A stretch of 64,000 nucleotides of DNA from Haliotis cracherodii (lineage: Eukaryota). The notes beneath the pieces were generated by a model. That model was not told where the DNA came from, did not search any database, and saw only the letters and a list, made by a program, of their open reading frames with translations. The translations under genes and the position numbers were made by a program. Location: assembly GCF_022045235.1 (NCBI RefSeq), contig NW_027266330.1:31744001-31808000 (forward strand), written 5' to 3'. Below are positions 1-24,500 of this stretch, in pieces; positions within the stretch are counted from its first letter, which is position 1, and each line of letters opens with the position of its first letter.

Positions 1-49
1 AGTATTACATCCGACTGCATTCTAGTGTTGTGTCCGAAGGCCCTAGAAA

Positions 50-911: not shown

Positions 912-956
<45 letters not shown>

Positions 957-2199
957 TAATTTGAGATGGTATCTCACAATACCAAGCCTTCCATCATTTT
1001 ACTTGGTTCTGAGTATGGCAATCATTCGAAGATATCGTCCTTAATCTATTCTTTGAAATAGGAAAAGATACAGACTAATCAATTGAAATGAAACACATTA
1101 GGTATTGATGGAGAAGAAGAGATTCCAAGGTAATGGTTGCACCATAACATTAAATACAGTTTGGAGCGTTGCAATTCGTTTGCCCGTATCCATGCCGATC
1201 CTATAGCAAAAGGATTTAGACAGACGAACCACAACCCCATATGATATTCATCTGAGAGAGATATATGCCAGGTTGTATTTCATATTATCAGAGCATTTAA
1301 TTGTTTCTCTTTCTTTTTGCAATGTACATGCCCAAGTGCTTAAGGAGAGAGTCATGCATGTTAAAAAGTGTCAATGCACACAACATGCAAAACAAAAGGA
1401 AATTGAAACATTGACATCAACACAGGCCAAATAACATTTTTGATCCAAGTCAGCACTTGATGAATACTATTCCCCTGAAAGCACTAAAAAGTAAAGATCA
1501 GAATATCCTGACATGAAACAGTGGGATTCTTTCAAAAACAATGCTAACAACGTGCTTATGTTTATCTAGCAACATACTCCAATTTCCATCATGTGCTTTA
1601 ACAGCATTCTGTATTCAAAGATATAAATCATGACACAGTGCTTTGTAATTCTCCCCAAAACATGACAGTTATACACTGAAGATGATGTCTCTAGATCATT
1701 TAACACACATAAACTTTATTGTACATGCCTATTTATTTATATAGTAACCTTTTAAGTACCCGACGTCCACCCAAAAGCTTCTAAGATGGTAAATATCCAG
1801 ATACTTAAGCCAAATGAGCTGCTTCAATTATACCATGATGATGGTATTCATCAAAAATAGTATTTGAAATGCTTCAAAACATACGTGCTGTATTTCGATC
1901 ATGTAAGACGGGTTGGGAAAATGCTCAGATTAACATAGCATTTACGACCTCCAACAGATGTGTACAATAAGTTCCAGATTTGACTGTACATGTATTCACT
2001 TTGCCTTTGCCTACCTGATTAAGGATTTTTTAGGATTGTGGACATGGTTTTCTCGGCTTTTTTAATTGAAACTAAACGTTCAGAGAAGCATGCATCAGAC
2101 GATTTCCAAGCTGATAGAAGTTTCTGTGACTTGGTTTCTGTGGAAGCGAAAGTAACCACATCGGATTTTTAAGTAATACAATGTACTGCACCGTTTGAT

Positions 2200-2495
2200 C
2201 AATCCCGATTTAATCAATTAACAATGATTGATAATCCCTGGAGATAACAGGACTAGATTGGTTGAACTCTTCTCAGACCTGTCCCTTTATACGGAAACTT
2301 GTTTTGACAAGAAGTTGATTGGTTTCTCAAGTGGACAGTGAGATTCCTTTCGGATCAAAGCCGAATGAAGTTGCAGTGTAGCTTTGATCTCGCCACTGGC
2401 TTCGAAAATGCTCTCTTTGATCTATAAATCTCTACTACTATGTTTATACTAAGGGTAAGTATAAATGTTTTGCAAGGACTGGAGTCCTTCACTGC
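2200..2495 (+). promoter_or_regulatory. Putative promoter of the array gene (repeated in every unit)
   Basis: Inverted CCAAT boxes (ATTGG 2257-2261, 2318-2322), TATAAA at 2423 and 2460, and Inr-like TTCACT with its A (2491) 31 nt from the second TATA. Palindrome AAGGACT-GG-AGTCCTT at 2474-2489. Confidence 0.5.
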
Positions 2496-2612
2496 ATCTC
2501 AATCCGTGAAAACGAACACATCTACTTTCCAATTAACTAAATTTGGCGCTACTGAATTCCTGTAGTATTACATCCGACTGCATTCTAGTGTTGTGTCCGA
2601 AGGCCCTAGAAA

Positions 2613-3234
2613 ATGGATCCAGTTCAAGTTGCCATCAAGCTGAGACGACTCCTTATTGCCCACGACAATGCAGTGAAAGAGATCCTGACATTAGGTAAAT
2701 ATGAACTGTGCTCTTTTTCAGTCCCCTGCAAGCATTGCAATATCAGTATCACACTGAATTTTAGAATTGAACAAAATAAAATGATATTGTTGTGAACACA
2801 TTTACCGAGATTTCTAATTACCCGTTTTATTGTTTTCAGATACCCAAGTCTACTATCTGATGCGGAAGATGACAGCCAACTCCTCCAACAACTGCATAAT
2901 CCGAGGTGAACAGCTGATCCAGAGACGATGGGTGCTGGAAGGTGTCAAGGAGATGTTTACCATCTACAGACAACTCAAGTGGCAAGAGGTGCAAGCCTGT
3001 GTAAACGCCATCACCAAAGATGCTTCTGGAGAGAGTGATTCGGAGGCGGACGGGAATGCAGATACCTCTTTCAATGACGATGAAGCTTCCTTCACGGAAC
3101 TCCTGTCCGACAGCTCATATAGTGAGGACGACGAAGACCAGGGAGACCTATACAGCAACGACAGCAGCTACGATATGACGACTCTCAGTCGAGCTTTGTC
3201 TGTAGACGACAGTGCACTTCATAGAAACGCCTAA
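2613..3234 (+). CDS. Array gene copy 2 join(2613..2694,2840..3234), G99 allele
   Basis: Same exon/intron signals as copy 1, ORF intact. Confidence 0.8.
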
Positions 3235-3474
3235 GGGAAATCACAAGTCCCATCCACATCAACTAGTGCTGCATTTACCTTGTTATTCATTTTTTGTTAT
3301 TGTACACAAATGTTGCCTGACAGTGTGCAAAGGGCATCCTATTATATTGTAAACCACATTTGTTTGTTGATGAATATGCTGAGGAAATAAATAATGAAGT
3401 CGATATTATAATCTTGATCATTTGCTGACACGCTCACGACATCTTGAAGACATCATTCGCATAGAAAGTTTGTG

Positions 3475-3517
<43 letters not shown>

Positions 3518-5173
3518 TAATTTGAGATGGTATCTCACAATACCAAGCCTTCCATCATTTTACTTGGTTCTGAGTATGGCAATCATTCGAAGATATCGTC
3601 CTTAATCTATTCTTTGAAATAGGAAAAGATACAGACTAATCAATTGAAATGAAACACATTAGGTATTGATGGAGAAGAAGAGATTCCAAGGTAATGGTTG
3701 CACCATAACATTAAATACAGTTTGGAGCGTTGCAATTCGTTTGCCCGTATCCATGCCGATCCTATAGCAAAAGGATTTAGACAGACGAACCACAACCCCA
3801 TATGATATTCATCTGAGAGAGATATATGCCAGGTTGTATTTCATATTATCAGAGCATTTAATTGTTTCTCTTTCTTTTTGCAATGTACATGCCCAAGTGC
3901 TTAAGGAGAGAGTCATGCATGTTAAAAAGTGTCAATGCACACAACATGCAAAACAAAAGGAAATTGAAACATTGACATCAACACAGGCCAAATAACATTT
4001 TTGATCCAAGTCAGCACTTGATGAATACTATTCCCCTGAAAGCACTAAAAAGTAAAGATCAGAATATCCTGACATGAAACAGTGGGATTCTTTCAAAAAC
4101 AATGCTAACAACGTGCTTATGTTTATCTAGCAACATACTCCAATTTCCATCATGTGCTTTAACAGCATTCTGTATTCAAAGATATAAATCATGACACAGT
4201 GCTTTGTAATTCTCCCCAAAACATGACAGTTATACACTGAAGATGATGTCTCTAGATCATTTAACACACATAAACTTTATTGTACATGCCTATTTATTTA
4301 TATAGTAACCTTTTAAGTACCCGACGTCCACCCAAAAGCTTCTAAGATGGTAAATATCCAGATACTTAAGCCAAATGAGCTGCTTCAATTATACCATGAT
4401 GATGGTATTCATCAAAAATAGTATTTGAAATGCTTCAAAACATACGTGCTGTATTTCGATCATGTAAGACGGGTTGGGAAAATGCTCAGATTAACATAGC
4501 ATTTACGACCTCCAACAGATGTGTACAATAAGTTCCAGATTTGACTGTACATGTATTCACTTTGCCTTTGCCTACCTGATTAAGGATTTTTTAGGATTGT
4601 GGACATGGTTTTCTCGGCTTTTTTAATTGAAACTAAACGTTCAGAGAAGCATGCATCAGACGATTTCCAAGCTGATAGAAGTTTCTGTGACTTGGTTTCT
4701 GTGGAAGCGAAAGTAACCACATCGGATTTTTAAGTAATACAATGTACTGCACCGTTTGATCAATCCCGATTTAATCAATTAACAATGATTGATAATCCCT
4801 GGAGATAACAGGACTAGATTGGTTGAACTCTTCTCAGACCTGTCCCTTTATACGGAAACTTGTTTTGACAAGAAGTTGATTGGTTTCTCAAGTGGACAGT
4901 GAGATTCCTTTCGGATCAAAGCCGAATGAAGTTGCAGTGTAGCTTTGATCTCGCCACTGGCTTCGAAAATGCTCTCTTTGATCTATAAATCTCTACTACT
5001 ATGTTTATACTAAGGGTAAGTATAAATGTTTTGCAAGGACTGGAGTCCTTCACTGCATCTCAATCCGTGAGAACGAACACATCTACTTTCCAATTATCTA
5101 AATTTGGCGCTACTGAATTCCTGTAGTATTACATCCGACTGCATTCTAGTGTTGTGTCCGAAGGCCCTAGAAA

Positions 5174-5795
5174 ATGGATCCAGTTCAAGTTGCCATCAAG
5201 CTGAGACGACTCCTTATTGCCCACGACAATGCAGTGAAAGAGATCCTGACATTAGGTAAATATGAACTGTGCTCTTTTTCAGTCCCCTGCAAGCATTGCA
5301 ATATCGGTATCACACTGAATTTTAGAATTGAACAAAATAAAATGATATTGTTGTGAACACATTTACCGAGATTTCTAATTACCCGTTTTATTGTTTTCAG
5401 ATACCCAAGTCTACTATCTGATGCGGAAGATGACAGCCAACTCCTCCAACAACTGCATAATCCGAGGTGAACAGCTGATCCAGAGACGATGGGTGCTGGA
5501 AGGTGTCAAGGAGATGTTTACCATCTACAGACAACTCAAGTGGCAAGAGGTGCAAGCCTGTGTAAACGCCATCACCAAAGATGCTTCTGGAGAGAGTGAT
5601 TCGGAGGCGGACGGGAATGCAGATACCTCTTTCAATGACGATGAAGCTTCCTTCACGGAACTCCTGTCCGACAGCTCATATAGTGAGGACGACGAAGACC
5701 AGGGAGACCTATACAGCAACGACAGCAGCTACGATATGACGACTCTCAGTCGAGCTTTGTCTGTAGACGACAGTGCACTTCATAGAAACGCCTAA
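5174..5795 (+). CDS. Array gene copy 3 join(5174..5255,5401..5795), G99 allele
   Basis: Same signals as copy 1, ORF intact. Confidence 0.8.
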
Positions 5796-6035
5796 GGGAA
5801 ATCACAAGTCCCATCCACATCAACTAGTGCTGCATTTACCTTGTTATTCATTTTTTGTTATTGTACACAAATGTTGCCTGACAGTGTGCAAAGGGCATCC
5901 TATTATATTGTAAACCACATTTGTTTGTTGATGAATATGCTGAGGAAATAAATAATGAAGTCGATATTATAATCTTGATCATTTGCTGACACGCTCACGA
6001 CATCTTGAAGACATCATTCGCATAGAAAGTTTGTG

Positions 6036-6078
<43 letters not shown>

Positions 6079-7734
6079 TAATTTGAGATGGTATCTCACA
6101 ATACCAAGCCTTCCATCATTTTACTTGGTTCTGAGTATGGCAATCATTCGAAGATATCGTCCTTAATCTATTCTTTGAAATAGGAAAAGATACAGACTAA
6201 TCAATTGAAATGAAACACATTAGGTATTGATGGAGAAGAAGAGATTCCAAGGTAATGGTTGCACCATAACATTAAATACAGTTTGGAGCGTTGCAATTCG
6301 TTTGCCCGTATCCATGCCGATCCTATAGCAAAAGGATTTAGACAGACGAACCACAACCCCATATGATATTCATCTGAGAGAGATATATGCCAGGTTGTAT
6401 TTCATATTATCAGAGCATTTAATTGTTTCTCTTTCTTTTTGCAATGTACATGCCCAAGTGCTTAAGGAGAGAGTCATGCATGTTAAAAAGTGTCAATGCA
6501 CACAACATGCAAAACAAAAGGAAATTGAAACATTGACATCAACACAGGCCAAATAACATTTTTGATCCAAGTCAGCACTTGATGAATACTATTCCCCTGA
6601 AAGCACTAAAAAGTAAAGATCAGAATATCCTGACATGAAACAGTGGGATTCTTTCAAAAACAATGCTAACAACGTGCTTATGTTTATCTAGCAACATACT
6701 CCAATTTCCATCATGTGCTTTAACAGCATTCTGTATTCAAAGATATAAATCATGACACAGTGCTTTGTAATTCTCCCCAAAACATGACAGTTATACACTG
6801 AAGATGATGTCTCTAGATCATTTAACACACATAAACTTTATTGTACATGCCTATTTATTTATATAGTAACCTTTTAAGTACCCGACGTCCACCCAAAAGC
6901 TTCTAAGATGGTAAATATCCAGATACTTAAGCCAAATGAGCTGCTTCAATTATACCATGATGATGGTATTCATCAAAAATAGTATTTGAAATGCTTCAAA
7001 ACATACGTGCTGTATTTCGATCATGTAAGACGGGTTGGGAAAATGCTCAGATTAACATAGCATTTACGACCTCCAACAGATGTGTACAATAAGTTCCAGA
7101 TTTGACTGTACATGTATTCACTTTGCCTTTGCCTACCTGATTAAGGATTTTTTAGGATTGTGGACATGGTTTTCTCGGCTTTTTTAATTGAAACTAAACG
7201 TTCAGAGAAGCATGCATCAGACGATTTCCAAGCTGATAGAAGTTTCTGTGACTTGGTTTCTGTGGAAGCGAAAGTAACCACATCGGATTTTTAAGTAATA
7301 CAATGTACTGCACCGTTTGATCAATCCCGATTTAATCAATTAACAATGATTGATAATCCCTGGAGATAACAGGACTAGATTGGTTGAACTCTTCTCAGAC
7401 CTGTCCCTTTATACGGAAACTTGTTTTGACAAGAAGTTGATTGGTTTCTCAAGTGGACAGTGAGATTCCTTTCGGATCAAAGCCGAATGAAGTTGCAGTG
7501 TAGCTTTGATCTCGCCACTGGCTTCGAAAATGCTCTCTTTGATCTATAAATCTCTACTACTATGTTTATACTAAGGGTAAGTATAAATGTTTTGCAAGGA
7601 CTGGAGTCCTTCACTGCATCTCAATCCGTGAGAACGAACACATCTACTTTCCAATTATCTAAATTTGGCGCTACTGAATTCCTGTAGTATTACATCCGAC
7701 TGCATTCTAGTGTTGTGTCCGAAGGCCCTAGAAA

Positions 7735-8356
7735 ATGGATCCAGTTCAAGTTGCCATCAAGCTGAGACGACTCCTTATTGCCCACGACAATGCAGTGAAA
7801 GAGATCCTGACATTAGGTAAATATGAACTGTGCTCTTTTTCAGTCCCCTGCAAGCATTGCAATATCGGTATCACACTGAATTTTAGAATTGAACAAAATA
7901 AAATGATATTGTTGTGAACACATTTACCGAGATTTCTAATTACCCGTTTTATTGTTTTCAGATACCCAAGTCTACTATCTGATGCGGAAGATGACAGCCA
8001 ACTCCTCCAACAACTGCATAATCCGAGGTGAACAGCTGATCCAGAGACGATGGGTGCTGGAAGGTGTCAAGGAGATGTTTACCATCTACAGACAACTCAA
8101 GTGGCAAGAGGTGCAAGCCTGTGTAAACGCCATCACCAAAGATGCTTCTGGAGAGAGTGATTCGGAGGCGGACTGGAATGCAGATACCTCTTTCAATGAC
8201 GATGAAGCTTCCTTCACGGAACTCCTGTCCGACAGCTCATATAGTGAGGACGACGAAGACCAGGGAGACCTATACAGCAACGACAGCAGCTACGATATGA
8301 CGACTCTCAGTCGAGCTTTGTCTGTAGACGACAGTGCACTTCATAGAAACGCCTAA
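7735..8356 (+). CDS. Array gene copy 4 join(7735..7816,7962..8356), W99 allele
   Basis: Same signals as copy 1, ORF intact. Confidence 0.8.
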
Positions 8357-8596
8357 GGGAAATCACAAGTCCCATCCACATCAACTAGTGCTGCATTTAC
8401 CTTGTTATTCATTTTTTGTTATTGTACACAAATGTTGCCTGACAGTGTGCAAAGGGCATCCTATTATATTGTAAACCACATTTGTTTGTTGATGAATATG
8501 CTGAGGAAATAAATAATGAAGTCGATATTATAATCTTGATCATTTGCTGACACGCTCACGACATCTTGAAGACATCATTCGCATAGAAAGTTTGTG

Positions 8597-8641
<45 letters not shown>

Positions 8642-10297
8642 TAATTTGAGATGGTATCTCACAATACCAAGCCTTCCATCATTTTACTTGGTTCTGAGTA
8701 TGGCAATCATTCGAAGATATCGTCCTTAATCTATTCTTTGAAATAGGAAAAGATACAGACTAATCAATTGAAATGAAACACATTAGGTATTGATGGAGAA
8801 GAAGAGATTCCAAGGTAATGGTTGCACCATAACATTAAATACAGTTTGGAGCGTTGCAATTCGTTTGCCCGTATCCATGCCGATCCTATAGCAAAAGGAT
8901 TTAGACAGACGAACCACAACCCCATATGATATTCATCTGAGAGAGATATATGCCAGGTTGTATTTCATATTATCAGAGCATTTAATTGTTTCTCTTTCTT
9001 TTTGCAATGTACATGCCCAAGTGCTTAAGGAGAGAGTCATGCATGTTAAAAAGTGTCAATGCACACAACATGCAAAACAAAAGGAAATTGAAACATTGAC
9101 ATCAACACAGGCCAAATAACATTTTTGATCCAAGTCAGCACTTGATGAATACTATTCCCCTGAAAGCACTAAAAAGTAAAGATCAGAATATCCTGACATG
9201 AAACAGTGGGATTCTTTCAAAAACAATGCTAACAACGTGCTTATGTTTATCTAGCAACATACTCCAATTTCCATCATGTGCTTTAACAGCATTCTGTATT
9301 CAAAGATATAAATCATGACACAGTGCTTTGTAATTCTCCCCAAAACATGACAGTTATACACTGAAGATGATGTCTCTAGATCATTTAACACACATAAACT
9401 TTATTGTACATGCCTATTTATTTATATAGTAACCTTTTAAGTACCCGACGTCCACCCAAAAGCTTCTAAGATGGTAAATATCCAGATACTTAAGCCAAAT
9501 GAGCTGCTTCAATTATACCATGATGATGGTATTCATCAAAAATAGTATTTGAAATGCTTCAAAACATACGTGCTGTATTTCGATCATGTAAGACGGGTTG
9601 GGAAAATGCTCAGATTAACATAGCATTTACGACCTCCAACAGATGTGTACAATAAGTTCCAGATTTGACTGTACATGTATTCACTTTGCCTTTGCCTACC
9701 TGATTAAGGATTTTTTAGGATTGTGGACATGGTTTTCTCGGCTTTTTTAATTGAAACTAAACGTTCAGAGAAGCATGCATCAGACGATTTCCAAGCTGAT
9801 AGAAGTTTCTGTGACTTGGTTTCTGTGGAAGCGAAAGTAACCACATCGGATTTTTAAGTAATACAATGTACTGCACCGTTTGATCAATCCCGATTTAATC
9901 AATTAACAATGATTGATAATCCCTGGAGATAACAGGACTAGATTGGTTGAACTCTTCTCAGACCTGTCCCTTTATACGGAAACTTGTTTTGACAAGAAGT
10001 TGATTGGTTTCTCAAGTGGACAGTGAGATTCCTTTCGGATCAAAGCCGAATGAAGTTGCAGTGTAGCTTTGATCTCGCCACTGGCTTCGAAAATGCTCTC
10101 TTTGATCTATAAATCTCTACTACTATGTTTATACTAAGGGTAAGTATAAATGTTTTGCAAGGACTGGAGTCCTTCACTGCATCTCAATCCGTGAAAACGA
10201 ACACATCTACTTTCCAATTAACTAAATTTGGCGCTACTGAATTCCTGTAGTATTACATCCGACTGCATTCTAGTGTTGTGTCCGAAGGCCCTAGAAA

Positions 10298-10919
10298 ATG
10301 GATCCAGTTCAAGTTGCCATCAAGCTGAGACGACTCCTTATTGCCCACGACAATGCAGTGAAAGAGATCCTGACATTAGGTAAATATGAACTGTGCTCTT
10401 TTTCAGTCCCCTGCAAGCATTGCAATATCAGTATCACACTGAATTTTAGAATTGAACAAAATAAAATGATATTGTTGTGAACACATTTACCGAGATTTCT
10501 AATTACCCGTTTTATTGTTTTCAGATACCCAAGTCTACTATCTGATGCGGAAGATGACAGCCAACTCCTCCAACAACTGCATAATCCGAGGTGAACAGCT
10601 GATCCAGAGACGATGGGTGCTGGAAGGTGTCAAGGAGATGTTTACCATCTACAGACAACTCAAGTGGCAAGAGGTGCAAGCCTGTGTAAACGCCATCACC
10701 AAAGATGCTTCTGGAGAGAGTGATTCGGAGGCGGACGGGAATGCAGATACCTCTTTCAATGACGATGAAGCTTCCTTCACGGAACTCCTGTCCGACAGCT
10801 CATATAGTGAGGACGACGAAGACCAGGGAGACCTATACAGCAACGACAGCAGCTACGATATGACGACTCTCAGTCGAGCTTTGTCTGTAGACGACAGTGC
10901 ACTTCATAGAAACGCCTAA
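10298..10919 (+). CDS. Array gene copy 5 join(10298..10379,10525..10919), G99 allele
   Basis: Same signals as copy 1, ORF intact. Confidence 0.8.
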
Positions 10920-11161
10920 GGGAAATCACAAGTCCCATCCACATCAACTAGTGCTGCATTTACCTTGTTATTCATTTTTTGTTATTGTACACAAATGTTG
11001 CCTGACAGTGTGCAAAGGGCATCCTATTATATTGTAAACCACATTTGTTTGTTGATGAATATGCTGAGGAAATAAATAATGAAGTCGATATTATAATCTT
11101 GATCATTTGCTGACACGCTCACGACATCTTGAAGACATCATTCGCATAGAAAGTTTGTGTA

Positions 11162-11202
<41 letters not shown>

Positions 11203-12855
11203 TAATTTGAGATGGTATCTCACAATACCAAGCCTTCCATCATTTTACTTGGTTCTGAGTATGGCAATCATTCGAAGATATCGTCCTTAATCTATTCTTT
11301 GAAATAGGAAAAGATACAGACTAATCAATTGAAATGAAACACATTAGGTATTGATGGAGAAGAAGAGATTCCAAGGTAATGGTTGCACCATAACATTAAA
11401 TACAGTTTGGAGCGTTGCAATTCGTTTGCCCGTATCCATGCCGATCCTATAGCAAAAGGATTTAGACAGACGAACCACAACCCCATATGATATTCATCTG
11501 AGAGAGATATATGCCAGGTTGTATTTCATATTATCAGAGCATTTAATTGTTTCTCTTTCTTTTTGCAATGTACATGCCCAAGTGCTTAAGGAGAGAGTCA
11601 TGCATGTTAAAAAGTGTCAATGCACACAGCATGCAAAACAAAAGGAAATTGAAACATTGACATCAACACAGGCCAAATAACATTTTTGATCCAAGTCAGC
11701 ACTTGATGAATACTATTCCCCTGAAAGCACTAAAAAGTAAAGATCAGAATATCCTGACATGAAACAGTGGGCATCTTTCAAAAACAATGCTAACAACGTG
11801 CTTATGTTTATCTAGCAACATACTCCAATTTCCATCATGTGCTTTAACAGCATTCTGTATTCAAAGATATAAATCATGACACAGTGCTTTGTAATTCTCC
11901 CCCAAAACATGACAGTTATACACTGAAGATGATGTCTCTAGATCATTTAACACACATAAACTTTATTGTACATGCCTATTTATTTATATAGTAACCTTTT
12001 AAGTACCCGACGTCCACCCAAAAGCTTCTAAGATGGTAAATATCCAGATACTTAAGCCAAATGAGCTGCTTCAATTATACCATGATGATGGTATTCATCA
12101 AAAATAGTATTTGAAATGCTTCAAAACATACGTGCTGTATTTCGATCATGTAAGACTGGTTGGGAAAATGCTCAGATTAACATAGCATTTACGACCTCCA
12201 ACAGATGTGTACAATAAGTTCCAGATTTGACTGTACATGTATTCACTTTGCCTTTGCCTACCTGATTAAGGATTTTTTAGGATTGTGGACATGGTTTTCT
12301 CGGCTTTTTTTATTGAAACTAAACGTTCAGAGAAGCATCAGGCGATTTCCAAGCTGATAGAAGTTACTGTGACTTGGTTTCTGTGGAAGCGACAGTAACC
12401 ACATCGGATTTTTAAGTAATACAATGTACTGCACCGTTTGATCAATCCCGATTTAATCAATTAACAATGATTGATAATCCCTGGAGATAACAGGACTAGA
12501 TTGGTTGAACTCTTCTCAGACCTGTCCCTTTATACGGAAACTTGTTTTGACAAGAAGTTGATTGGTTTCTCAAGTGGACAGTGAGATTCCTTTCGGATCA
12601 AAGCCGAATGAAGTTGCAGTGTAGCTTTGATCTCGCCACTGGCTTCGAAAATGCTCTCTTTGATCTATAAATCTCTACTACTATGTTTATACTAAGGGTA
12701 AGTATAAATGTTTTGCACGGACTGGAGTCCTTCACTGCATCTCAATCCGTGAGAACGAACACATCTACTTTCCAATTATCTAAATTTGGCGCTACTGAAT
12801 TCCTGTAGTATTACATCCGACTGCATTCTAGTGTTGTGTCCGAAGGCCCTAGAAA

Positions 12856-13477
12856 ATGGATCCAGTTCAAGTTGCCATCAAGCTGAGACGACTCCTTATT
12901 GCCCACGACAATGCAGTGAAAGAGATCCTGACATTAGGTAAATATGAACTGTGCTCTTTTTCAGTCCCCTGCAAACATGGCAATATCGGTATCACACTGA
13001 ATTTTAGAATTGAACAAAATAAAATGATATTGTTGTGAACACATTTACCGAGATTTCTAATTACCCGTTTTATTGTTTTCAGATACCCAAGTCTACTATC
13101 TGATGCGGAAGATGACAGCCAACTCCTCCAACAACTGCATAATCCGAGGTGAACAGCTGATCCAGAGACGATGGGTGCTGGAAGGTGTCAAGGAGATGTT
13201 TACCATCTACAGACAACTCAAGTGGCAAGAGGTGCAAGCCTGTGTAAACGCCATCACCAAAGATGCTTCTGGAGAGAGTGACTCGGAGGCGGACTGGAAT
13301 GCAGATACCTCTTTCAATGACGATGAAGCTTCCTTCACGGAACTCCTGTCCGACAGCTCATATAGTGAGGACGACGAAGACCAGGGAGACCTATACAGCA
13401 ACGACAGCAGCTACGATATGACGACTCTCAGTCGAGCTTTGTCTGTAGACGACAGTGCACTTCATAGAAACGCCTAA
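12856..13477 (+). CDS. Array gene copy 6 join(12856..12937,13083..13477), W99 allele
   Basis: Same signals; one synonymous GAT>GAC change. Confidence 0.8.
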
Positions 13478-15271
13478 GGGAAATCACAAGTCCCATCCAC
13501 ATCAACTAGTGCTGCATTTACCTTGTTATTCATTTTTTGTTATTGTACACAAATGTTGCCTGACAGTGTGCAAAGGGCATCCTATTATATTGTAAACCAC
13601 ATTTGTTTGTTGATGAATATGCTGAGGAAATAAATAATGAAGTCGATATTATAATCTTGATCATTTGCTGACACGCTCACGACATCTTGAAGACATCATT
13701 CGCATAGAAAGTTTGTGAGAGACAGAGAGAGAGAGAGAGAGAAAAGGTTAATTTGAGATGGTATCTCACAATACCAAGCCTTCCATCATTTTACTTGGTT
13801 CTGAGTATGGCAATCATTCGAAGATATCGTCCTTAATCTATTCTTTGAAATAGGAAAAGATACAGACTAATCAATTGAAATGAAACACATTAGGTATTGA
13901 TGGAGAAGAAGAGATTCCAAGGTAATGGTTGCACCATAACATTAAATACAGTTTGGAGCGTTGCAATTCGTTTGCCCGTATCCATGCCGATCCTATAGCA
14001 AAAGGATTTAGACAGACGAACCACAACCCCATATGATATTCATCTGAGAGGATATATGCCAGGTTGTATTTCATATTATCAGAGCATTTAATTGTTTCTC
14101 TTTCTTTTTGCAATGTACATGCCCAAGTGCTTAAGGAGAGAGTCATGCATGTTAAAAAGTGTCAATGCACACAGCATGCAAAACAAAAGGAAATTGAAAC
14201 ATTGACATCAACACAGGCCAAATAACATTTTTGATCCAAGTCAGCACTTGATGAATACTATTCCCCTGAAAGCACTAAAAAGTAAAGATCAGAATATCCT
14301 GACATGAAACAGTGGGCATCTTTCAAAAACAATGCTAACAACGTGCTTATGTTTATCTAGCAACATACTCCAATTTCCATCATGTGCTTTAACAGCATTC
14401 TGTATTCAAAGATATAAATCATGACACAGTGCTTTGTAATTCTCCCCAAAACATGACAGTTATACACTGAAGATGATGTCTCTAGATCATTTAACACACA
14501 TAAACTTTATTGTACATGCCTATTTATTTATATAGTAACCTTTTAAGTACCCGACGTCCACCCAAAAGCTTCTAAGATGGTAAATATCCAGATACTTAAG
14601 CCAAATGAGCTGCTTCAATTATACCATGATGATGGTATTCATCAAAAATAGTATTTGAAATGCTTCAAAACATACGTGCTGTATTTCGATCATGTAAGAC
14701 GGGTTGGGAAAATGCTCAGATTAACATAGCATTTACGACCTCCAACAGATGTGTACAATAAGTTCCAGATTTGACTGTACATGTATTCACTTTGCCTTTG
14801 CCTACCTGATTAAGGATTTTTTAGGATTGTGGACATGGTTTTCTCGGCTTTTTTAATTGAAACTAAACGTTCAGAGAAGCATGCATCAGACGATTTCCAA
14901 GCTGATAGAAGTTTCTGTGACTTGGTTTCTGTGGAAGCGAAAGTAACCACATCGGATTTTTAAGTAATACAATGTACTGCACCGTTTGATCAATCCCGAT
15001 TTAATCAATTAACAATGATTGATAATCCCTGGAGATAACAGGACTAGATTGGTTGAACTCTTCTCAGACCTGTCCCTTTATACGGAAACTTGTTTTGACA
15101 AGAAGTTGATTGGTTTCTCAAGTGGACAGTGAGATTCCTTTCGGATCAAAGCCGAATGAAGTTGCAGTGTAGCTTTGATCTCGCCACTGGCTTCGAAAAT
15201 GCTCTCTTTGATCTATAAATCTCTACTACTATGTTTATACTAAGGGTAAGTATAAATGTTTTGCAAGGACT

Positions 15272-16186
15272 ACAAGCCCTCCAAAACAAAAATACCAAAA
15301 ACCGACCTAAATTAATAAATCAAATACTTAAAAGCTCCAACGACCTAACAAAAGCAGGCAAACAAATAACCTTCTTGTGGATACCCGCCCACGTAGGAAT
15401 ATACGGTAATGAAAACGCCGATAAAGCAGCTAAACTATCCCTTAAAATCCCAGAAATAAGCTTAAACTTACCCATCTCAAAATCAGAAATTAAAAGTGTA
15501 AACAAACAAAAAATCACAAAAAAATGGCATAACCTATATCTAAACTCAAATAGCAAAATCAAAAGAGTGCTCAGCAAACCACTAACCAAACCAAAAATTC
15601 TCCATCCATCAAAAAAAATCGACAGAGTAATCACTAAACTCCAAACAGGACACACCAACCTAAATAACCACCTAAAAAAAATTAAAAAACACACTACAGG
15701 TAACTGCCCACACTGCAAACAACCAGAAACCCCAGAACACGCACTCATCCACTGCACACACTACCTAACACATCGAACCGCATTACAAACCACCCTCAAT
15801 CTAAACAAGGCTCTCACTCTAGAAGCAATACTAAACCCACAAAATAAACTAGAAAACTTCAAGGCCTTAGGCGTATTCTTAATAAAAACGGAACTAATAA
15901 AACGCATCTAAAACCATAATAACCTACCAAATCAAAATCACATAAACAAACAATCATCCACCATACCCAGCTCCCTTAGTTCTCCTCCCCAACCCCATCA
16001 GCATCTATTCCAAATCTCAAAATTCCCAAATTCTATATAAGCAACCCCTAAAGCCCCCTCTTGGGTTGCACAGACCACCCTCGCCCCTTTCGGAAACACA
16101 TTAAATGGCCTGGCCGGGCCCGTGTGCGAAATACGCATCAGTCGGAAAGCGCACGTTAAATCTCCAAAGTAAGTAAGTAAGTAAGT
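15272..16186 (+). mobile_element. 5'-truncated non-LTR retrotransposon (I group, Nimb-like), insertion 1
   Basis: Encodes the end of RNase H (WIPAHVGIYGNENADKAAK) and a CCHC finger (CPHCKQPETPEHALIHC), stop at 15911. 3' UTR and (AAGT)5 tail at 16167-16186. 5' junction via GGACT microhomology; no TSD beyond at most one T. Confidence 0.93.
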
Positions 16187-16318
16187 GGAGTCCTTCACTG
16201 CATCTCAATCCGTGAGAACGAACACATCTACTTTCCAATTATCTAAATTTGGCGCTACTGAATTCCTGTAGTATTACATCCGACTGCATTCTAGTGTTGT
16301 GTCCGAAGGCCCTAGAAA

Positions 16319-16940
16319 ATGGATCCAGTTCAAGTTGCCATCAAGCTGAGACGACTCCTTATTGCCCACGACAATGCAGTGAAAGAGATCCTGACATTAG
16401 GTAAATATGAACTGTGCTCTTTTTCAGTCCCCTGCAAGCATTGCAATATCGGTATCACACTGAATTTTAGAATTGAACAAAATAAAATGATATTGTTGTG
16501 AACACATTTACCGAGATTTCTAATTACCCGTTTTATTGTTTTCAGATACCCAAGTCTACTATCTGATGCGGAAGATGACAGCCAACTCCTCCAACAACTG
16601 CATAATCCGAGGTGAACAGCTGATCCAGAGACGATGGGTGCTGGAAGGTGTCAAGGAGATGTTTACCATCTACAGACAACTCAAGTGGCAAGAGGTGCAA
16701 GCCTGTGTAAACGCCATCACCAAAGATGCTTCTGGAGAGAGTGATTCGGAGGCGGACTGGAATGCAGATACCTCTTTCAATGACGATGAAGCTTCCTTCA
16801 CGGAACTCCTGTCCGACAGCTCATATAGTGAGGACGACGAAGACCAGGGAGACCTATACAGCAACGACAGCAGCTACGATATGACGACTCTCAGTCGAGC
16901 TTTGTCTGTAGACGACAGTGCACTTCATAGAAACGCCTAA
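16319..16940 (+). CDS. Array gene copy 7 join(16319..16400,16546..16940), W99 allele; upstream region interrupted by LINE insertion 1
   Basis: ORF intact; 915-bp LINE fragment ends 132 bp upstream of the ATG. Confidence 0.75.
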
Positions 16941-17180
16941 GGGAAATCACAAGTCCCATCCACATCAACTAGTGCTGCATTTACCTTGTTATTCATTTTT
17001 TGTTATTGTACACAAATGTTGCCTGACAGTGTGCAAAGGGCATCCTATTATATTGTAAACCACATTTGTTTGTTGATGAATATGCTGAGGAAATAAATAA
17101 TGAAGTCGATATTATAATCTTGATCATTTGCTGACACGCTCACGACATCTTGAAGACATCATTCGCATAGAAAGTTTGTG

Positions 17181-17223
<43 letters not shown>

Positions 17224-18768
17224 TAATTTGAGATGGTATCTCACAATACCAAGCCTTCCATCATTTTACTTGGTTCTGAGTATGGCAATCATTCGAAGAT
17301 ATCGTCCTTAATCTATTCTTTGAAATAGGAAAAGATACAGACTAATCAATTGAAATGAAACACATTAGGTATTGATGGAGAAGAAGAGATTCCAAGGTAA
17401 TGGTTGCACCATAACATTAAATACAGTTTGGAGCGTTGCAATTCGTTTGCCCGTATCCATGCCGATCCTATAGCAAAAGGATTTAGACAGACGAACCACA
17501 ACCCCATATGATATTCATCTGAGAGAGATATATGCCAGGTTGTATTTCATATTATCAGAGCATTTAATTGTTTCTCTTTCTTTTTGCAATGTACATGCCC
17601 AAGTGCTTAAGGAGAGAGTCATGCATGTTAAAAAGTGTCAATGCACACAACATGCAAAACAAAAGGAAATTGAAACATTGACATCAACACAGGCCAAATA
17701 ACATTTTTGATCCAAGTCAGCACTTGATGAATACTATTCCCCTGAAAGCACTAAAAAGTAAAGATCAGAATATCCTGACATGAAACAGTGGGATTCTTTC
17801 AAAAACAATGCTAACAACGTGCTTATGTTTATCTAGCAACATACTCCAATTTCCATCATGTGCTTTAACAGCATTCTGTATTCAAAGATATAAATCATGA
17901 CACAGTGCTTTGTAATTCTCCCCAAAACATGACAGTTATACACTGAAGATGATGTCTCTAGATCATTTAACACACATAAACTTCATTGTACATGCCTATT
18001 TATTTATATAGTAACCTTTTAAGTACCCGACGTCCACCCAAAAGCTTCTAAGATGGTAAATATCCAGATACTTAAGCCAAATGAGCTGCTTCAATTATAC
18101 CATGATGATGGTATTCATCAAAAATAGTATTTGAAATGCTTCAAAACATACGTGCTGTATTTCGATCATGTAAGACGGGTTGGGAAAATGCTCAGATTAA
18201 CATAGCATTTACGACCTCCAACAGATGTGTACAATAAGTTCCAGATTTGACTGTACATGTATTCACTTTGCCTTTGCCTACCTGATTAAGGATTTTTTAG
18301 GATTGTGGACATGGTTTTCTCGGCTTTTTTAATTGAAACTAAACGTTCAGAGAAGCATGCATCAGACGATTTCCAAGCTGATAGAAGTTTCTGTGACTTG
18401 GTTTCTGTGGAAGCGAAAGTAACCACATCGGATTTTTAAGTAATACAATGTACTGCACCGTTTGATCAATCCCGATTTAATCAATTAACAATGATTGATA
18501 ATCCCTGGAGATAACAGGACTAGATTGGTTGAACTCTTCTCAGACCTGTCCCTTTATACGGAAACTTGTTTTGACAAGAAGTTGATCGGTTTCTCAAGTG
18601 GACAGTGAGATTCCTTTCGGATCAAAGCCGAATGAAGTTGCAGTGTAGCTTTGATCTCGCCACTGGCTTCGAAAATGCTCTCTTTGATCTATAAATCTCT
18701 ACTACTATGTTTATACTAAGGGTAAGTATAAATGTTTTGCAAGGACTGGAGTCCTTCACTGCATCTCA

Positions 18769-20764
18769 TACTTACTTACTTTGGAGATTTAACGTGCGCT
18801 TTCCGACTGACGCGTATTTCGCACACGGGCCCGGCCAGGCCATTTAATGTGTTTCCGAAAGGGGCGAGGGTGGTCTGTGCAACCCAAGAGGGGGCTTTAG
18901 GGGTTGCTTATATAGAATTTGGGAATTTTGAGATTTGGAATAGATGCCGATGGGGTTGGGGAGGAGAACTAAGGGAGCTGGGTATGGTGGATGATTGTTT
19001 GTTTTTGTGATTTTGATTTGGTAGGTTATCATGGTTTTAGATGCGTTTTATTAGTTCCGTTTTTATTAAGAATACGCCTAAGGCCTTGAAGTTTTCTAGT
19101 TTATTTTGTGGGTTTAGTATTGCTTCTAGAGTGAGAGCCTTGTTTAGATTGAGGGTGGTTTGTAATGCGGTTCGATGTGTTAGGTAGTGTGTGCAGTGGA
19201 TGAGTGCGTGTTCTGGGGTTTCTGGTTGTTTGCAGTGTGGGCAGTTACCTGTAGTGTGTTTTTTAATTTTTTTTAGGTGGTTATTTAGGTTGGTGTGTCC
19301 TGTTTGGAGTTTAGTGATTACTCTGTCGATTTTTTTGGATGGATGGAGAATTTTTGGTTTGGTTAGTGGTTTGCTGAGCACTCTTTTGATTTGGCTATTT
19401 GAGTTTAGATATAGGTTATGCCATTTTTTTGTGATTTTTTGTTTGTTTACACTTTTAATTTCTGATTTTGAGATGGGTAAGTTTAAGCTTATTTCTGGGA
19501 TTTTGAGGGATAGTTTAGCTGCTTTATCGGCGTTTTCATTACCGTATATTCCTACGTGGGCGGGTATCCACAAGAAGGTTATTTGTTTGCCTGCTTTTGT
19601 TAGGTCGTTGGAGCTTTTTAGTATTTGATTTATTAATTTAGGTCGGTTTTTGGTATTTTTGTTTTGGAGGGCTTGTAGTCCACTTAGGGAGTCAGTAAGT
19701 ATTAGGATTTTTTGGTTGTTTTTGGATTCTTGATTGTGGAGGGCTGAGGCCATGCCCATTAGTTCGGCCGTGAATATTGATTGGTTATTTGGGAGTCGGA
19801 AGGATTGTGTGGTTTTAGTTGGTTGTGTGGTATGGACTCCGAAACCCGTGTGTTTGGAGGTCGGATCTGAGGATCCGTCCGTGTAAATGTGACACCAATT
19901 TGGCCAATTTTTGTGTATGTATGCTAGTGTGGTAGTTTTAGCTATGTTTGGGTCGGTTTGTTTATTTATTTGGCTAGCTAGTGTTGTGTCTATTTTGGGT
20001 ATTTTAAGTTTAGGGGTGAAGATATTTGATTGTTTGCAGTTTTGTTTAAGATTTTTAATTTGGTGTTCATTTAGGTAGTTTGTTATTCTTTGGGATATTG
20101 GGGTAAGTAAGGGGTGTTTACGAGCTAGAGCTTGGTTTTTAGGGCTGATGTTTTGGTTTATTAAGTTTTGGATGAGAGGGTTTGATTGGGACGCGGCCCA
20201 GAAATTTAAGCTTAGCTGTTCCCTGCGTAGACTTAGTGGCATTTCTCCTGTTAAGGCCTGAAGTGAGGTGTAGGAGGTGCCATGTTGGGTGCGTGTAATG
20301 AGTTTGAGAGCCTGATATTGTATTGAGTCAAGTTTTTTAGATAGAGAGTTGTTTAGGGTGTTGTATATGGCGCAGCCGTAGTCTAGTTTTGATCTAATTA
20401 GGGATATGTAGAGAGAGAGGAGAGTATCTTTGGAGGATCCCCAGTTAGAGCCAGTTAGGCATCTTAGGGTGTTTAGGTCTTTACTGCATTTAGTTGTTAG
20501 GTTTTGGATGTGAGCATCCCAGGTGAGATGTTCATCGAAAATAAGTCCTAAGAATTTGGTTTGTTTTTGAAATTTGATTGTTTGATTGTTTAGCTGGAGG
20601 ATTGGGGAGGCGGGTTTCATGTTTTTATGTTTGAATACTATTCCTGTTGTTTTTTCTGAGTTAAGGGAGAAGCCCCATTTGTCAGCCCATTGTTGTATTT
20701 TATTAAGAGATTTTTGGAGTAGATTTTTGGCCATTTTCATGCTAAGTAAGTAAGTAAGTAAGTA
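18769..20764 (-). mobile_element. 5'-truncated non-LTR retrotransposon of the same family, insertion 2, antisense, 22-bp TSD
   Basis: TSD TGGAGTCCTTCACTGCATCTCA at 18747-18768 and 20765-20786. Minus-strand tail TACTTACTTACT at 18769-18780 and an extra plus-strand (TAAG)n run at 20743-20764. Confidence 0.95.
19037..20740 (-). pseudogene. Truncated LINE ORF2: C-terminal part of RT, RNase H, CCHC zinc finger (567 aa open)
   Basis: QWADKWGF..KFLGLIFD (distal RT/thumb), IRSKLDYG, RNase H motifs IYTDGS, FTAEL, TDSLS, WIPAHVGIYGNENAD, then CX2CX7HX4C. Begins downstream of the YADD motif, so it is not a full protein. Confidence 0.92.
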
Positions 20765-20897
20765 TGGAGTCCTTCACTGCATCTCAATCCGTGAGAACGA
20801 ACACATCTACTTTCCAATTATCTAAATTTGGCGCTACTGAATTCCTGTAGTATTACATCCGACTGCATTCTAGTGTTGTGTCCGAAGGCCCTAGAAA

Positions 20898-21519
20898 ATG
20901 GATCCAGTTCAAGTTGCCATCAAGCTGAGACGACTCCTTATTGCCCACGACAATGCAGTGAAAGAGATCCTGACATTAGGTAAATATGAACTGTGCTCTT
21001 TTTCAGTCCCCTGCAAGCATTGCAATATCAGTATCACACTGAATTTTAGAATTGAACAAAATAAAATGATATTGTTGTGAACACATTTACCGAGATTTCT
21101 AATTACCCGTTTTATTGTTTTCAGATACCCAAGTCTACTATCTGATGCGGAAGATGACAGCCAACTCCTCCAACAACTGCATAATCCGAGGTGAACAGCT
21201 GATCCAGAGACGATGGGTGCTGGAAGGTGTCAAGGAGATGTTTACCATCTACAGACAACTCAAGTGGCAAGAGGTGCAAGCCTGTGTAAACGCCATCACC
21301 AAAGATGCTTCTGGAGAGAGTGATTCGGAGGCGGACGGGAATGCAGATACCTCTTTCAATGACGATGAAGCTTCCTTCACGGAACTCTTGTCCGACAGCT
21401 CATATAGTGAGGACGACGAAGACCAGGGAGACCTATACAGCAACGACAGCAGCTACGATATGACGACTCTCAGTCGAGCTTTGTCTGTAGACGACAGTGC
21501 ACTTCATAGAAACGCCTAA
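20898..21519 (+). CDS. Array gene copy 8 join(20898..20979,21125..21519), G99 allele; upstream region interrupted by LINE insertion 2
   Basis: ORF intact; one synonymous CTG>TTG change. Confidence 0.75.
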
Positions 21520-24500
21520 GGGAAATCACAAGTCCCATCCACATCAACTAGTGCTGCATTTACCTTGTTATTCATTTTTTGTTATTGTACACAAATGTTG
21601 CCTGACAGTGTGCAAAGGGCATCCTATTATATTGTAAACCACATTTGTTTGTTGATGAATATGCTGAGGAAATAAATAATGAAGTCGATATTATAATCTT
21701 GATCATTTGCTGACACGCTCACGACATCTTGAAGACATCATTCGCATAGAAAGTTTGTGAGAGACAGAGAGAGAGAGAGAGAGAAAAGGTTAATTTGAGA
21801 TGGTATCTCACAATACCAAGCCTTCCATCATTTTACTTGGTTCTGAGTATGGCAATCATTCGAAGATATCGTCCTTAATCTATTCTTTGAAATAGGAAAA
21901 GATACAGACTAATCAATTGAAATGAAACACATTAGGTATTGATGGAGAAGAAGAGATTCCAAGGTAATGGTTGCACCATAACATTAAATACAGTTTGGAG
22001 CGTTGCAATTCGTTTGCCCGTATCCATGCCGATCCTATAGCAAAAGGATTTAGACAGACGAACCACAACCCCATATGATATTCATCTGAGAGGATATATG
22101 CCAGGTTGTATTTCATATTATCAGAGCATTTAATTGTTTCTCTTTCTTTTTGCAATGTACATGCCCAAGTGCTTAAGGAGAGAGTCATGCATGTTAAAAA
22201 GTGTCAATGCACACAGCATGCAAAACAAAAGGAAATTGAAACATTGACATCAACACAGGCCAAATAACATTTTTGATCCAAGTCAGCACTTGATGAATAC
22301 TATTCCCCTGAAAGCACTAAAAAGTAAAGATCAGAATATCCTGACATGAAACAGTGGGCATCTTTCAAAAACAATGCTAACAACGTGCTTATGTTTATCT
22401 AGCAACATACTCCAATTTCCATCATGTGCTTAAGATATAAATCATGACACAGTGCTTTGTAATTCTCCCCAAAACATGACAGTTATACACTGAAGATGAT
22501 GTCTCTAGATCATTTAACACACATAAACTTTATTGTGCATGCCTATTTTTTATTCATATAGTACCTGAAGTCCACCCAAAAGCTTCTAAGATGGTAAATA
22601 TCCAGATACTTAAGCCAAAATGAGCTGCTTCAATTATACCATGATGATGGTATTCATAAAACATAGTATTTGTAATAGGAAAAAGATACAGACTAATCAA
22701 TTGAAATGAAACACATTTTGACATTATGTATTGGTGGAGAAGAAGAGATTCCCATGTTTCATTTAATCCGAGCATTCAATTGTTTCTTGTAAATGAACAA
22801 ACGAACAAAATCGCACCTTTTGGCATTTGGTGTTAGGAAAAGGTGTTATGCTACTCCAAGTATAGTATAGTTTCGATTATGGCCAGTTCAGTCATTTCTG
22901 TTCGAAATTTAATGAAATTTGATATGCTATAAAAGCATATTGTTTCGAAGTTTCGTGTTATCCGAGGTTCGACATAACTGAAACTGATAAATAAAGAAGC
23001 AATACGCATGATTTTACTTGGTACAACGGTATGTTAGACACAACAGTGTTTTTGACAGGTACGTGTCGTTGGTGGAACGAGTGAATAAGTGAGTGAGTGA
23101 ATTTTGAACAGTATTCTTGTTACACCATGGCGTGTCAGCTGAATGCGGAGGTAAAGCCTAAAGTGGTGCAAGTTCCAGACCATAATCGGGGCAAACCGGA
23201 ATTCGAACCCACGATCATAGATTTCTGCCAATCAGTCGTTGTTTTATCCCCCTAATGCGAAGCCCCAGACAGGGTAACAACAAGTACCATCTTTTAACGT
23301 CTTTTGGTATGATGCGGACGGGGATCGAACCCCGGACCTACCGCTCTCTGGACGGACACTCTACCACTAGACCACGTTTGCAGTCTGTCTGAACATGAAT
23401 ATGTTTGCAGCGATGTAAGCGAGATCAGGCTTTTCCAATTGTACGCAGAAATTTATCAAAAGATCATATATATTAGTGGTCGGTCATTTATTATATGGTC
23501 AAAGGAAATCAGTGGAAGATCACCAAAAAATATGACAGTCTCTTGGGGAGGGTTATAAAACAATACACATACTTGGTGAGGGTCATGAAAAGTGCACATT
23601 TTATAATACAATATAAAATGCTTTTGCATTTTGTCTTTTGGGGAGGGTAATGAAACAAATGTACAAGGCCATGGGCATGGTCTTCCGAAAATATGACGAG
23701 CATTAGGTGATGGTGGGTTGAAATGGCATTTAACATCGCGTCCAAGATTATTGCACTTTATGTAGCGACGTGCATGCATGTGTGTGTGGCTGCTTGTACT
23801 AGTCCGGACTGGTGCTGATTTATAGTGCTAGCACACTTAGATACCATGCCGCAGTTTAACATGAATACCCCACTCAGACACAGCATACTGACTCCACGCC
23901 GACCAGTCGTTTTAGTTTGTTTGTTTGTTTGTTTTTAACGCTGCACTCAGAAATATTCCAGCTATATGACAGCGGTCTGTAAATAATCGAGTCTGGACCA
24001 GACAATCCAGTGATTGACATGATGAGCATCGATCCACGCAATTTGGATACGATGACATGCAGCAACCAAGTCAGCGAGCCTCACCACCCGATCCCATTAG
24101 TCGCCCCTTACGACAAGCATAGTTGCCTTTTACGCCAAACATGGGTTGCTGAAGACCTATTCTACACCAGATGTTTAGCCCCTTAATGCGGAGTGCCAGA
24201 CAGGGAAACAACAAGTACCATCTTTAAATGTCTTTTTGTATGACACGCCCGGGAATTGAACCCCGGACCTCCCGTTCTCCGGGCTGACGCTCTACCACAA
24301 GACTATGGTGGCGGTCTTGAGCATTAGGGGAGGGTCTCCATTTTCTGTGCATCAAAAACATCTGACCCTCTGTAATAAATGACCAGTCCCTTTGGCAAGA
24401 CAAATAAAACACATAAAACAACAATGATGTTGAAGCTGATGTTTTATTCTTTGGCTCATTGACTGTAAAATGTCTCCCAAATTCTACCTGCACAGAGTTA

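What the first reader, a model, noticed from the sequence alone, without database searches (positions are those of the whole stretch)
18747..20786. Double-tailed insertion: both target nicks appear to have primed reverse transcription at the RNA 3' tail
Seen: between 22-bp TSDs, the left end is the antisense 3' tail followed by ~2 kb of antisense element. The right end is a sense (TAAG)5TA run (20743-20764) joined to the same site used by insertion 1. Established: in L1 twin priming the second nick primes internally, giving a 5' inversion with a single tail. Inference: here the bottom-strand nick copied only tail repeats (possibly by slippage) and the top-strand nick 22 bp away primed again at a 3' tail, after which the two cDNAs were joined. 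This fits a symmetric or dimeric attack near a palindrome.
Basis: partly seen in the sequence, partly recalled or inferred. Interest (0 to 1): 0.72.

Follow-up and report, generated by a model that had tools for sequence, protein, structure and literature searches.

The report
Double-tailed LINE insertion beside TATA box
A young jumping gene landed here with its repeat tail at both ends, likely because both cut DNA strands began copying at the RNA's tail (a pattern already described for primate L1), and its family often cuts DNA about 20 bases after a TATA-box sequence, which may be a new way for such elements to choose landing sites.

Summary
Longer copies have no internal (CTTA)n there. The element is a young APE-RT-RNase H LINE with 1,722 exact 3' ends. 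The structure is known: Meyer et al. 2010 (PMC2837659) describe 11 double-tailed L1s as twin- or dual-priming products. I found a second copy of the same build and polarity (L382) and a bodiless double tail with a TSD (L341), so it recurs. The palindrome is not the cause. The right-hand nick is an array hotspot (7 other insertions). Family-wide, the tail-side nick lies 17-21 bp after a TATA motif: 21 of 53 targets, against 0-2 of 53 in ten control windows. So the tail-only end is the normal first nick and the 2-kb body likely came from the second nick. Nine paper searches found no LINE positioned by TATA boxes. Earlier scan notes saw single cases in this genome (e1-9138181, e1-9315527). Reads did not confirm the junction.

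The parts
18727..18734 (+). TATA-box motif 20 bp before the first-strand nick of this array unit
   Evidence: present at the same place in every window unit
18741..18756 (.). Small palindrome (7-bp arms, 2-bp loop) that spans the hotspot nick; probably incidental
   Evidence: arm 7; family-wide arms not longer than control
18747..18768 (+). Left TSD, 22 bp (family mode 10-12)
18769..18778 (-). 3' tail of the long cDNA (two TAAG units plus TA), joined to the top-strand (second) nick
18779..20742 (-). 5'-truncated LINE body, positions 4589-6552 of the 6,552-bp full-length copy L089
19037..20740 (-). Open remnant of ORF2 (end of RT region, RNase H, C-terminal Cys/His motif), 567 aa plus stop
20743..20764 (+). 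Tail-only product (TAAG)5TA joined to the bottom-strand (first, TATA-defined) nick
20765..20786 (+). Right TSD
15272..16185 (+). Insertion 1: independent ordinary sense insertion at the same nick, 5-bp microhomology at its 5' end; 99.1% identical to insertion 2
1..22676 (+). Right end of a 2.56-kb tandem array (47 right half-sites counted over about 160 kb of G000:C67) that supplies the hotspot

Best explanation
This is a double-tailed insertion of a young APE-RT-RNase H LINE, likely made in one event in which both nicked target strands primed reverse transcription at a (UAAG)n RNA tail. Shown: the structure, the hotspot, the TATA spacing and the recurrence. Inferred steps: (1) the element nicks the bottom strand 20 bp after a TATA motif, as at its other targets; (2) that primer copies only tail repeats and stops, an outcome also seen as tail-only insertions with TSDs; (3) the top strand is nicked 22 bp on (usually 10-12) and its 3' end primes at a tail again and copies about 2 kb; (4) the two cDNAs are joined head to head with at most 1 bp of microhomology, presumably by end joining. 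Two RNAs (dual priming, about 0.5) seem a little more likely than one RNA read twice or slipped on (about 0.3).
For: No internal (CTTA)n in 27 readable loci or 7 of 7 long copies. Seven other sense insertions with different 5' ends join their tails at the same array base. TATAWA starts at -27..-15 of the tail-side nick in 21 of 53 non-redundant targets, against 0-2 of 53 in each of ten control windows (Fisher p 1e-16). TATAAA is found 9 times and its reverse complement 0 times. On the other strand, relative to the second nick, TATAWA occurs in 2 of 53. L382 (G000:C32, about 1,711,788-1,712,830) has a TATA, an 8-bp TSD, an antisense tail with a 1,007-bp body and (TAAG)5, in the same polarity. 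L341 has a TATA, a 10-bp TSD and two tails with no body. Tail-only insertions with TSDs: L379, L332. Classical internal twin priming: L201. Head-to-head bodies, each with a tail: L148, L149. For two RNAs or slippage: 106 of 108 genomic tails have 5 units or fewer, while the two tails here sum to about 8. Same build in L1: PMC2837659 Fig. 1d-e.
Against: No read spans the junction (other samples, uninformative). The 22-bp TSD is unusual: 2 of 62 TSD calls exceed 14 bp, and one of those lies inside tail repeats. One RNA and two RNAs cannot be told apart from tail-only sequence. 32 of 53 targets lack a strict TATAWA, though 35 of 53 have a 6-bp A/T run there. L148 and L149 lack TSDs and could be two insertions followed by a deletion. 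The sister subfamily gave only 2 of 9 strict TATAWA hits. About four of the 21 TATA-positive targets are Penelope-like repeats that may be related despite clustering.
Confidence: 0.8

Rival explanations
1. Two sequential insertions: an antisense copy with a 22-bp TSD, then a separate tail-only insertion at the hotspot base (or the reverse order).
For: The site is a true hotspot. Stacked insertions occur in this family (L088/L089, L100, L105), as do tail-only insertions. Double insertion at one site is known for non-LTR elements (PMC5932611 passages).
Against: After the first insertion only the left TSD copy keeps the TATA; the right copy has element sequence upstream. The tail sits on the right copy and has no TSD of its own. 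Stacked copies are separated by a TSD copy, and none separates body and tail here. The reverse order needs a zero-TSD insertion exactly at a junction. L382 would need the same coincidence.
Confidence: 0.08
2. Symmetric (dimeric) attack: both nicks are first-strand nicks set by the palindrome.
For: The array site has 7-bp arms, longer than at any of the 53 sampled targets. Symmetric double priming probably occurs elsewhere in the family: L148 and L118 join two tails inside a divergent repeat, and for the L148 repeat the empty form carries a central two-way TATA run.
Against: The top nick lies 12 bp beyond the palindrome and has no TATA on its strand. Every other insertion at this base in the array has its tail on the bottom nick. 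Palindromes are not enriched at targets. The symmetric cases lose the centre rather than duplicate it.
Confidence: 0.05
3. The right-hand run is filler: after ordinary antisense TPRT, the polymerase jumped to the RNA tail, or repair copied the tail, at the 5' junction.
For: There is no microhomology at the inner junction, and both tails end in the same TA register.
Against: This needs the non-TATA nick to be the first nick and the hotspot nick to be second, both here and at L382. In the 94 closed copies sampled, none has a (CTTA)n run within 40 nt of its 5' end.
Confidence: 0.04
4. Assembly artefact in a tandem array.
For: The array units are about 99% alike, and no read support was obtained.
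Against: Perfect TSD, open frame, a copy distinct from its neighbours (8 differences from insertion 1 over 913 bp), and the same build on other contigs outside arrays.
Confidence: 0.03

Closest known systems
Primate L1 insertions with 5' poly(T): twin-priming variant d and dual priming (Meyer et al. 2010, PMC2837659; parts 1-4 of 6 of the text read)
   Same: TSD, inverted tail, truncated element, tail, TSD. The tail-only end lies at the canonical first-nick site. No microhomology at the inner junction. Inverted tail about 22 nt (their mean 23). One versus two RNAs unresolved.
   Different: Not L1: RNase H-bearing ORF2 and a (TAAG)n tail instead of poly(A), in an invertebrate-type genome. The first nick is marked by an upstream TATA motif, not TTTT/A. 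The family also shows bodiless double tails and head-to-head bodies, which bear on the dual-priming idea that the paper could not test.
Classical L1 twin priming (Ostertag and Kazazian 2001, seen only as described in PMC2837659 and in passages of bioRxiv 10.1101/2024.08.27.596794)
   Same: Both nicks prime cDNA synthesis; L201 in this family has the classical form.
   Different: Here the second primer starts at a tail, not internally.
Trypanosome ingi/L1Tc elements (PMC3820030, passages)
   Same: Relative site specificity from a motif upstream of the insertion, a narrow TSD length (12 bp there, 10-12 here), and tandem stacking at one site.
   Different: The motif here is a TATA box 17-21 bp before the nick, with little consensus at the nick apart from an A bias at two positions. 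The ingi motif is ascribed to the element's own endonuclease.
Ty3 and Dictyostelium TRE5-A (review PMC5911963, passages)
   Same: Fixed-distance insertion relative to a promoter; TBP-containing TFIIIB is the host factor (Ty3) or ORF1 partner (TRE5-A).
   Different: Those target Pol III genes. Here the targets are TATA motifs in dispersed DNA, Penelope-like repeats and a protein-coding array, and no host factor has been shown.
Drosophila I-element (PMC10018349, passages; structure recalled)
   Same: I-group layout (recalled): Cys/His ORF1, APE-RT-RNase H ORF2, short-repeat tail. Prefers AT-rich sites, modest promoter enrichment (1.74-fold).
   Different: The paper places I-element insertions about 150 bp upstream of start sites and never uses the word TATA; no fixed spacing was seen in the passages read.

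Membership tests
Double-tailed twin/dual-priming insertion (Meyer 2010) | TSDs bound the whole insertion | tested here: met
   22-bp identical TSDs
Double-tailed twin/dual-priming insertion (Meyer 2010) | Inverted tail touches the 5' TSD and lies within 20 bp of the truncated element | tested here: met
   0 bp on both sides
Double-tailed twin/dual-priming insertion (Meyer 2010) | Tail-only end lies at the element's canonical first-nick site | tested here: met
   Hotspot base used by 7 other insertions; TATA at -20
Double-tailed twin/dual-priming insertion (Meyer 2010) | Verifiable empty pre-insertion site without the repeat | tested here: met
   Empty array units
Double-tailed twin/dual-priming insertion (Meyer 2010) | Verification by PCR or reads | tested here: inconclusive
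   laid four other runs; no bridging piece was listed
Dual priming proper (two RNAs) | The two cDNAs come from different RNA molecules | tested here: inconclusive
   Tail-only end carries no variants. L148 halves differ at 14 of 542 and L149 halves at 8 of 162, but may be separate events
L1 clade | Poly(A) tail and ORF2 without RNase H (definition recalled) | tested here: not met
   (TAAG)n tail; RNase H E 9e-19
I-group LINE (I/Nimb-like; names recalled) | ORF2 with APE, RT and RNase H in that order | tested here: met
   Pfam PF03372/PF14529, PF00078, PF00075 in L089 ORF2
I-group LINE (I/Nimb-like; names recalled) | Separate ORF1 with Cys/His knuckles | tested here: inconclusive
   582-aa frame with C-x2-C-x4-H-x4-C read by eye; Pfam gave no family
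I-group LINE (I/Nimb-like; names recalled) | RT phylogeny places it in a named clade | not tested
   No named reference RTs on hand; atlas hits were unnamed for clade
TBP-guided promoter targeting (Ty3/TRE5-A type) | Fixed distance from a promoter element | tested here: met
   TATA to first nick 17-21 bp, to second nick 28-33 bp in 20 targets
TBP-guided promoter targeting (Ty3/TRE5-A type) | Targets are working promoters | tested here: inconclusive
   Initiator-like motif 4 of 20 against 2 of 20 in control; no RNA data used
TBP-guided promoter targeting (Ty3/TRE5-A type) | Element protein depends on or binds a host transcription factor | not testable with these tools
   Needs biochemistry

The most novel reading that the evidence does not exclude
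This LINE family is steered by TBP-bound TATA boxes of RNA polymerase II core promoters. It nicks about 10 bp before the start site and again at the start site, so it lands in sense orientation at +1. Where the TATA run reads both ways, two RNPs prime on opposite strands and fuse head to head, giving natural proof of two-RNA dual priming. It would be a Pol II counterpart of Ty3/TRE5-A targeting in an animal LINE.
Probability: 0.3. Interest if true: 0.8.

Novelty: new variant of a known kind. Interest (0 to 1): 0.52.

Why it matters
The double tail itself is a known outcome of target-primed reverse transcription, here extended from primate L1 to an RNase H-bearing LINE with a four-base tail. 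The family offers a graded series in one genome: tail-only, two tails, tail plus body, body plus body, and classical inversion. Because the first nick can be read off the TATA spacing, each product can be assigned to the first or second nick. That makes second-strand priming and the one-versus-two-RNA question directly testable. If the TATA spacing reflects TBP, a very active LINE is aimed at transcription start sites and at the promoters of other mobile elements, with consequences for gene regulation. If it reflects the element's own DNA-binding, it is an ingi-like upstream motif that happens to match promoters.

Tried and rejected
Internal (CTTA)n in the element: absent at that position; the only such run is an 8-mer 631 bp further on.

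RNA-gene target: Rfam on one unit gave one chance hit (E 0.76).

Further arrays: the 40 best-scored of 55 candidates all lie in this array.

Tail-run survey for antisense bodies; 30 of 486 hits read, mostly a sister subfamily; L118 found; 23 of 23 read, only this locus, and the pattern was written to include it; 97 of the 100 listed places read, of 172 in all; L382 found; 28 of 28; L382 again and L341; 30 of 56, none; 10 of 10, none. These patterns could catch at most about 39% of possible junctions, so the rate is rough, a few tenths of a percent of 1,722 copies.

Position-ordered sample: 97 of the first 100 places on C1 plus 13 long copies picked. Of 113 3' ends, 94 were distinct and closed; 62 had a TSD of 8 bp or more; 53 remained after clustering. 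The 32 without a TSD were left out of the TATA count. None of the 94 had a tail-only 5' inversion.

L333 first looked like a tail-only insertion with a long TSD but is a tandem repeat; dropped.

Palindrome and initiator enrichment: not found. Sister-subfamily TATA test: too small (2 of 9).

Reads: uninformative; no finer read test was obtained.

Paper searches for TATA-positioned LINEs or non-L1 double tails found none. The library lacks most subscription journals, so older I-factor and ingi papers were not seen. No supplements were read; those of Meyer 2010 and Cao 2023 may hold target logos that bear on novelty.

Full report
Observation. Identical 22-bp TSDs bound an antisense tail (18769-18778), a 1,964-bp antisense body (18779-20742) and a sense (TAAG)5TA run (20743-20764). 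The host is the right end of a 2.56-kb tandem array that runs about 160 kb on G000:C67 (47 right half-sites). Empty units show the target once and carry no TAAG run.

The element. A natural full-length copy in the same array (L089, 6,552 bp) has a 582-aa ORF1 frame with Cys/His knuckles read by eye and a 1,260-aa ORF2 frame. ORF2 holds endonuclease, reverse transcriptase and RNase H domains. That is the I-group layout (clade names recalled, no tree made). The genome holds 1,722 exact 3' ends, and this copy differs from L089 at 12 of 1,960 bases. Upstream of the MKMAKN codons, 27 readable loci and 7 of 7 long copies continue with ordinary ORF2 sequence. So the right-hand run is an inverted tail, with at most one base of microhomology at the inner junction.

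The site. Seven other sense insertions, with different 5' ends, join their tails at the same base of other array units, with TSDs of about 8-13 bp where present. To see why, I read 97 of the first 100 copies on C1 plus 13 long copies. Of 113 3' ends, 94 were distinct and closed, 62 had a TSD of 8 bp or more (mode 10-12), and 53 targets were non-redundant. The nick has little consensus beyond an A bias at two positions. But TATAWA starts 15-27 bp upstream in 21 of 53 targets, against 0-2 of 53 in ten other windows (p 1e-16). It is directional (TATAAA 9, reverse 0) and occurs in only 2 of 53 on the other strand relative to the second nick. The spacing is 17-21 bp to the first nick and 28-33 bp to the second; the latter is the usual TATA-to-start distance of polymerase II (recalled). 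The array site has its TATA at -20. Palindromes are not enriched at targets. An initiator motif is not enriched either (4 of 20 against 2 of 20), and a small sister-subfamily set gave only 2 of 9. The 32 closed copies without a TSD were not counted.

What this means for the finding. The right-hand, tail-only end lies on the normal first nick. The 2-kb body hangs on a top-strand nick that has no TATA on its strand and lies 22 bp away, twice the usual distance. The likely order is an aborted first strand, then priming at a tail from the second nick, then end joining. A later, separate tail insertion is unlikely: only the left TSD copy keeps the TATA, and the tail has no TSD of its own.

Recurrence. 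Pattern searches for tail runs not preceded by the element's 3' end (read counts in Tried and rejected) gave L382, which has the same build and polarity with an 8-bp TSD and a 1,007-bp body, and L341, which has two tails, no body and a 10-bp TSD; both lie downstream of a TATA. Tail-only insertions with TSDs exist (L379, L332). The C1 sample held no tail-only inversion among 94, one classical internal inversion (L201) and two head-to-head pairs of tailed bodies (L148, L149). L148 and L118 sit in divergent hammerhead-like repeats (motif recognised from memory). For the L148 repeat, four empty sites with a central two-way TATA run were found. These cases fit symmetric priming with loss of the centre, but could also be two insertions plus a deletion. 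Genomic tails have 5 units or fewer in 106 of 108 cases, while the paired tails sum to about 8 or 9, so either two RNAs or slippage is needed.

Reads. Four public runs show the element and the array, and in X2 a contig with the ordinary hotspot junction, but no piece bridging this junction. They need not be the same individual, so the check is open.

What is known. Meyer et al. 2010 (PMC2837659; parts 1-4 of 6 read) report 39 L1 loci with a 5' poly(T), 11 of them with a 3' poly(A) too. They place the tail-only end at the canonical endonuclease site and propose a twin-priming variant or two-RNA dual priming, which they could not separate. Double-tailed bridges from synchronous L1 events occur in tumours (bioRxiv 10.1101/2024.08.27.596794, passages). 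Upstream target motifs are known for trypanosome ingi/L1Tc (PMC3820030, passages) and Entamoeba SINE1 (PMC2996970, passages). TBP-containing TFIIIB guides Ty3 and interacts with TRE5-A ORF1 at Pol III genes (PMC5911963, passages). Drosophila I-element shows only AT-rich and modest promoter preference (PMC10018349, passages). PMC3276498 excluded non-LTR elements (passages). Nine searches found no LINE at a fixed distance from TATA boxes and no double tail outside L1; the library is incomplete and no supplements were read. Earlier scan notes on this genome, which call it an abalone (not tested here), describe single LINE insertions at a gene start and in a Penelope promoter, and breaks of this array at the gene's start. 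They agree with the spacing but are unchecked notes.

Verdict. Real, and in structure already described for L1; new for this kind of LINE and recurrent in the family. The palindrome reading is not supported. The more interesting result is the TATA-fixed nick, shown here as a sequence statistic only. Whether TBP or the element's own protein reads it is untested (about 0.3 against 0.5, the rest chromatin or sampling effects). Interest 0.52.

Noticed in passing
C1 sample, L057-L219: Family-wide TATA motif 17-21 bp upstream of the first nick, second nick 28-33 bp from it; little consensus at the nick.
   Followed up: yes
L101, L105, L155, L148, L209, L379, L341 and others: Many targets are repeats with hammerhead-like cores (CTGATGA or TTGAYAA ... 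GAAAC; motif recalled, not tested against Rfam) just downstream of a TATA run, probably Penelope-like terminal repeats; one target family took 6 of 62 sampled insertions.
   Followed up: partly
L148 (G000:C1:38444200-38446900), L149 (C1:38565800-38567600), L118 (C1:16729406-16732422): Head-to-head fusions with a tail at each end and no TSD; L148 and L118 lie in divergent repeats, and the empty form of the L148 repeat has a central two-way TATA run. Candidates for two-RNA dual priming.
   Followed up: partly
L062, L064, L066, L079, L140, L144, L151, L182, L203, L206, L209, L214, L217: A sharp class of 47-52-bp copies, all truncated at element position about 6501-6506, suggests a strong reverse-transcription stop in the 3' UTR.
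   Followed up: no
window 1-22676; G000:C67 about 31,606,785-31,766,676: 2.56-kb tandem array whose unit holds an apparent two-exon gene (ATG near window 5174, second exon about 5400-5795) with an acidic end and no Pfam family above cut-off.
   Followed up: partly
L093 (G000:C67:31604000-31612000): At the left end of the array a 1.4-kb copy and 185 bp of unit are inverted, with the tail on a variant of the hotspot site: a LINE-linked rearrangement.
   Followed up: partly
L088/L089 (G000:C67:31,714,386-31,726,006): Two stacked insertions at the hotspot; the left one is joined to the middle of a unit, so about 1 kb of array was lost.
   Followed up: partly
L089 positions 1-373: 5' UTR holds a tandem 235-bp monomer starting CAGTT, like monomer promoters of mouse L1 (recalled); L382 and L149 inserted at such 5' ends.
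   Followed up: no
L201 (G000:C1:49053600-49057600): Classical twin-priming inversion at element position 5140 in a CA repeat just after a TATA run.
   Followed up: partly
L107-L136, L223, L238 and others: Sister subfamilies (about 80-85% identical) share the 3' end and TAAG tail and often stack with this family at one site.
   Followed up: partly
window 30152-32775: 2.6-kb C/A-rich minisatellite, 21-bp unit, 125 copies.
   Followed up: no
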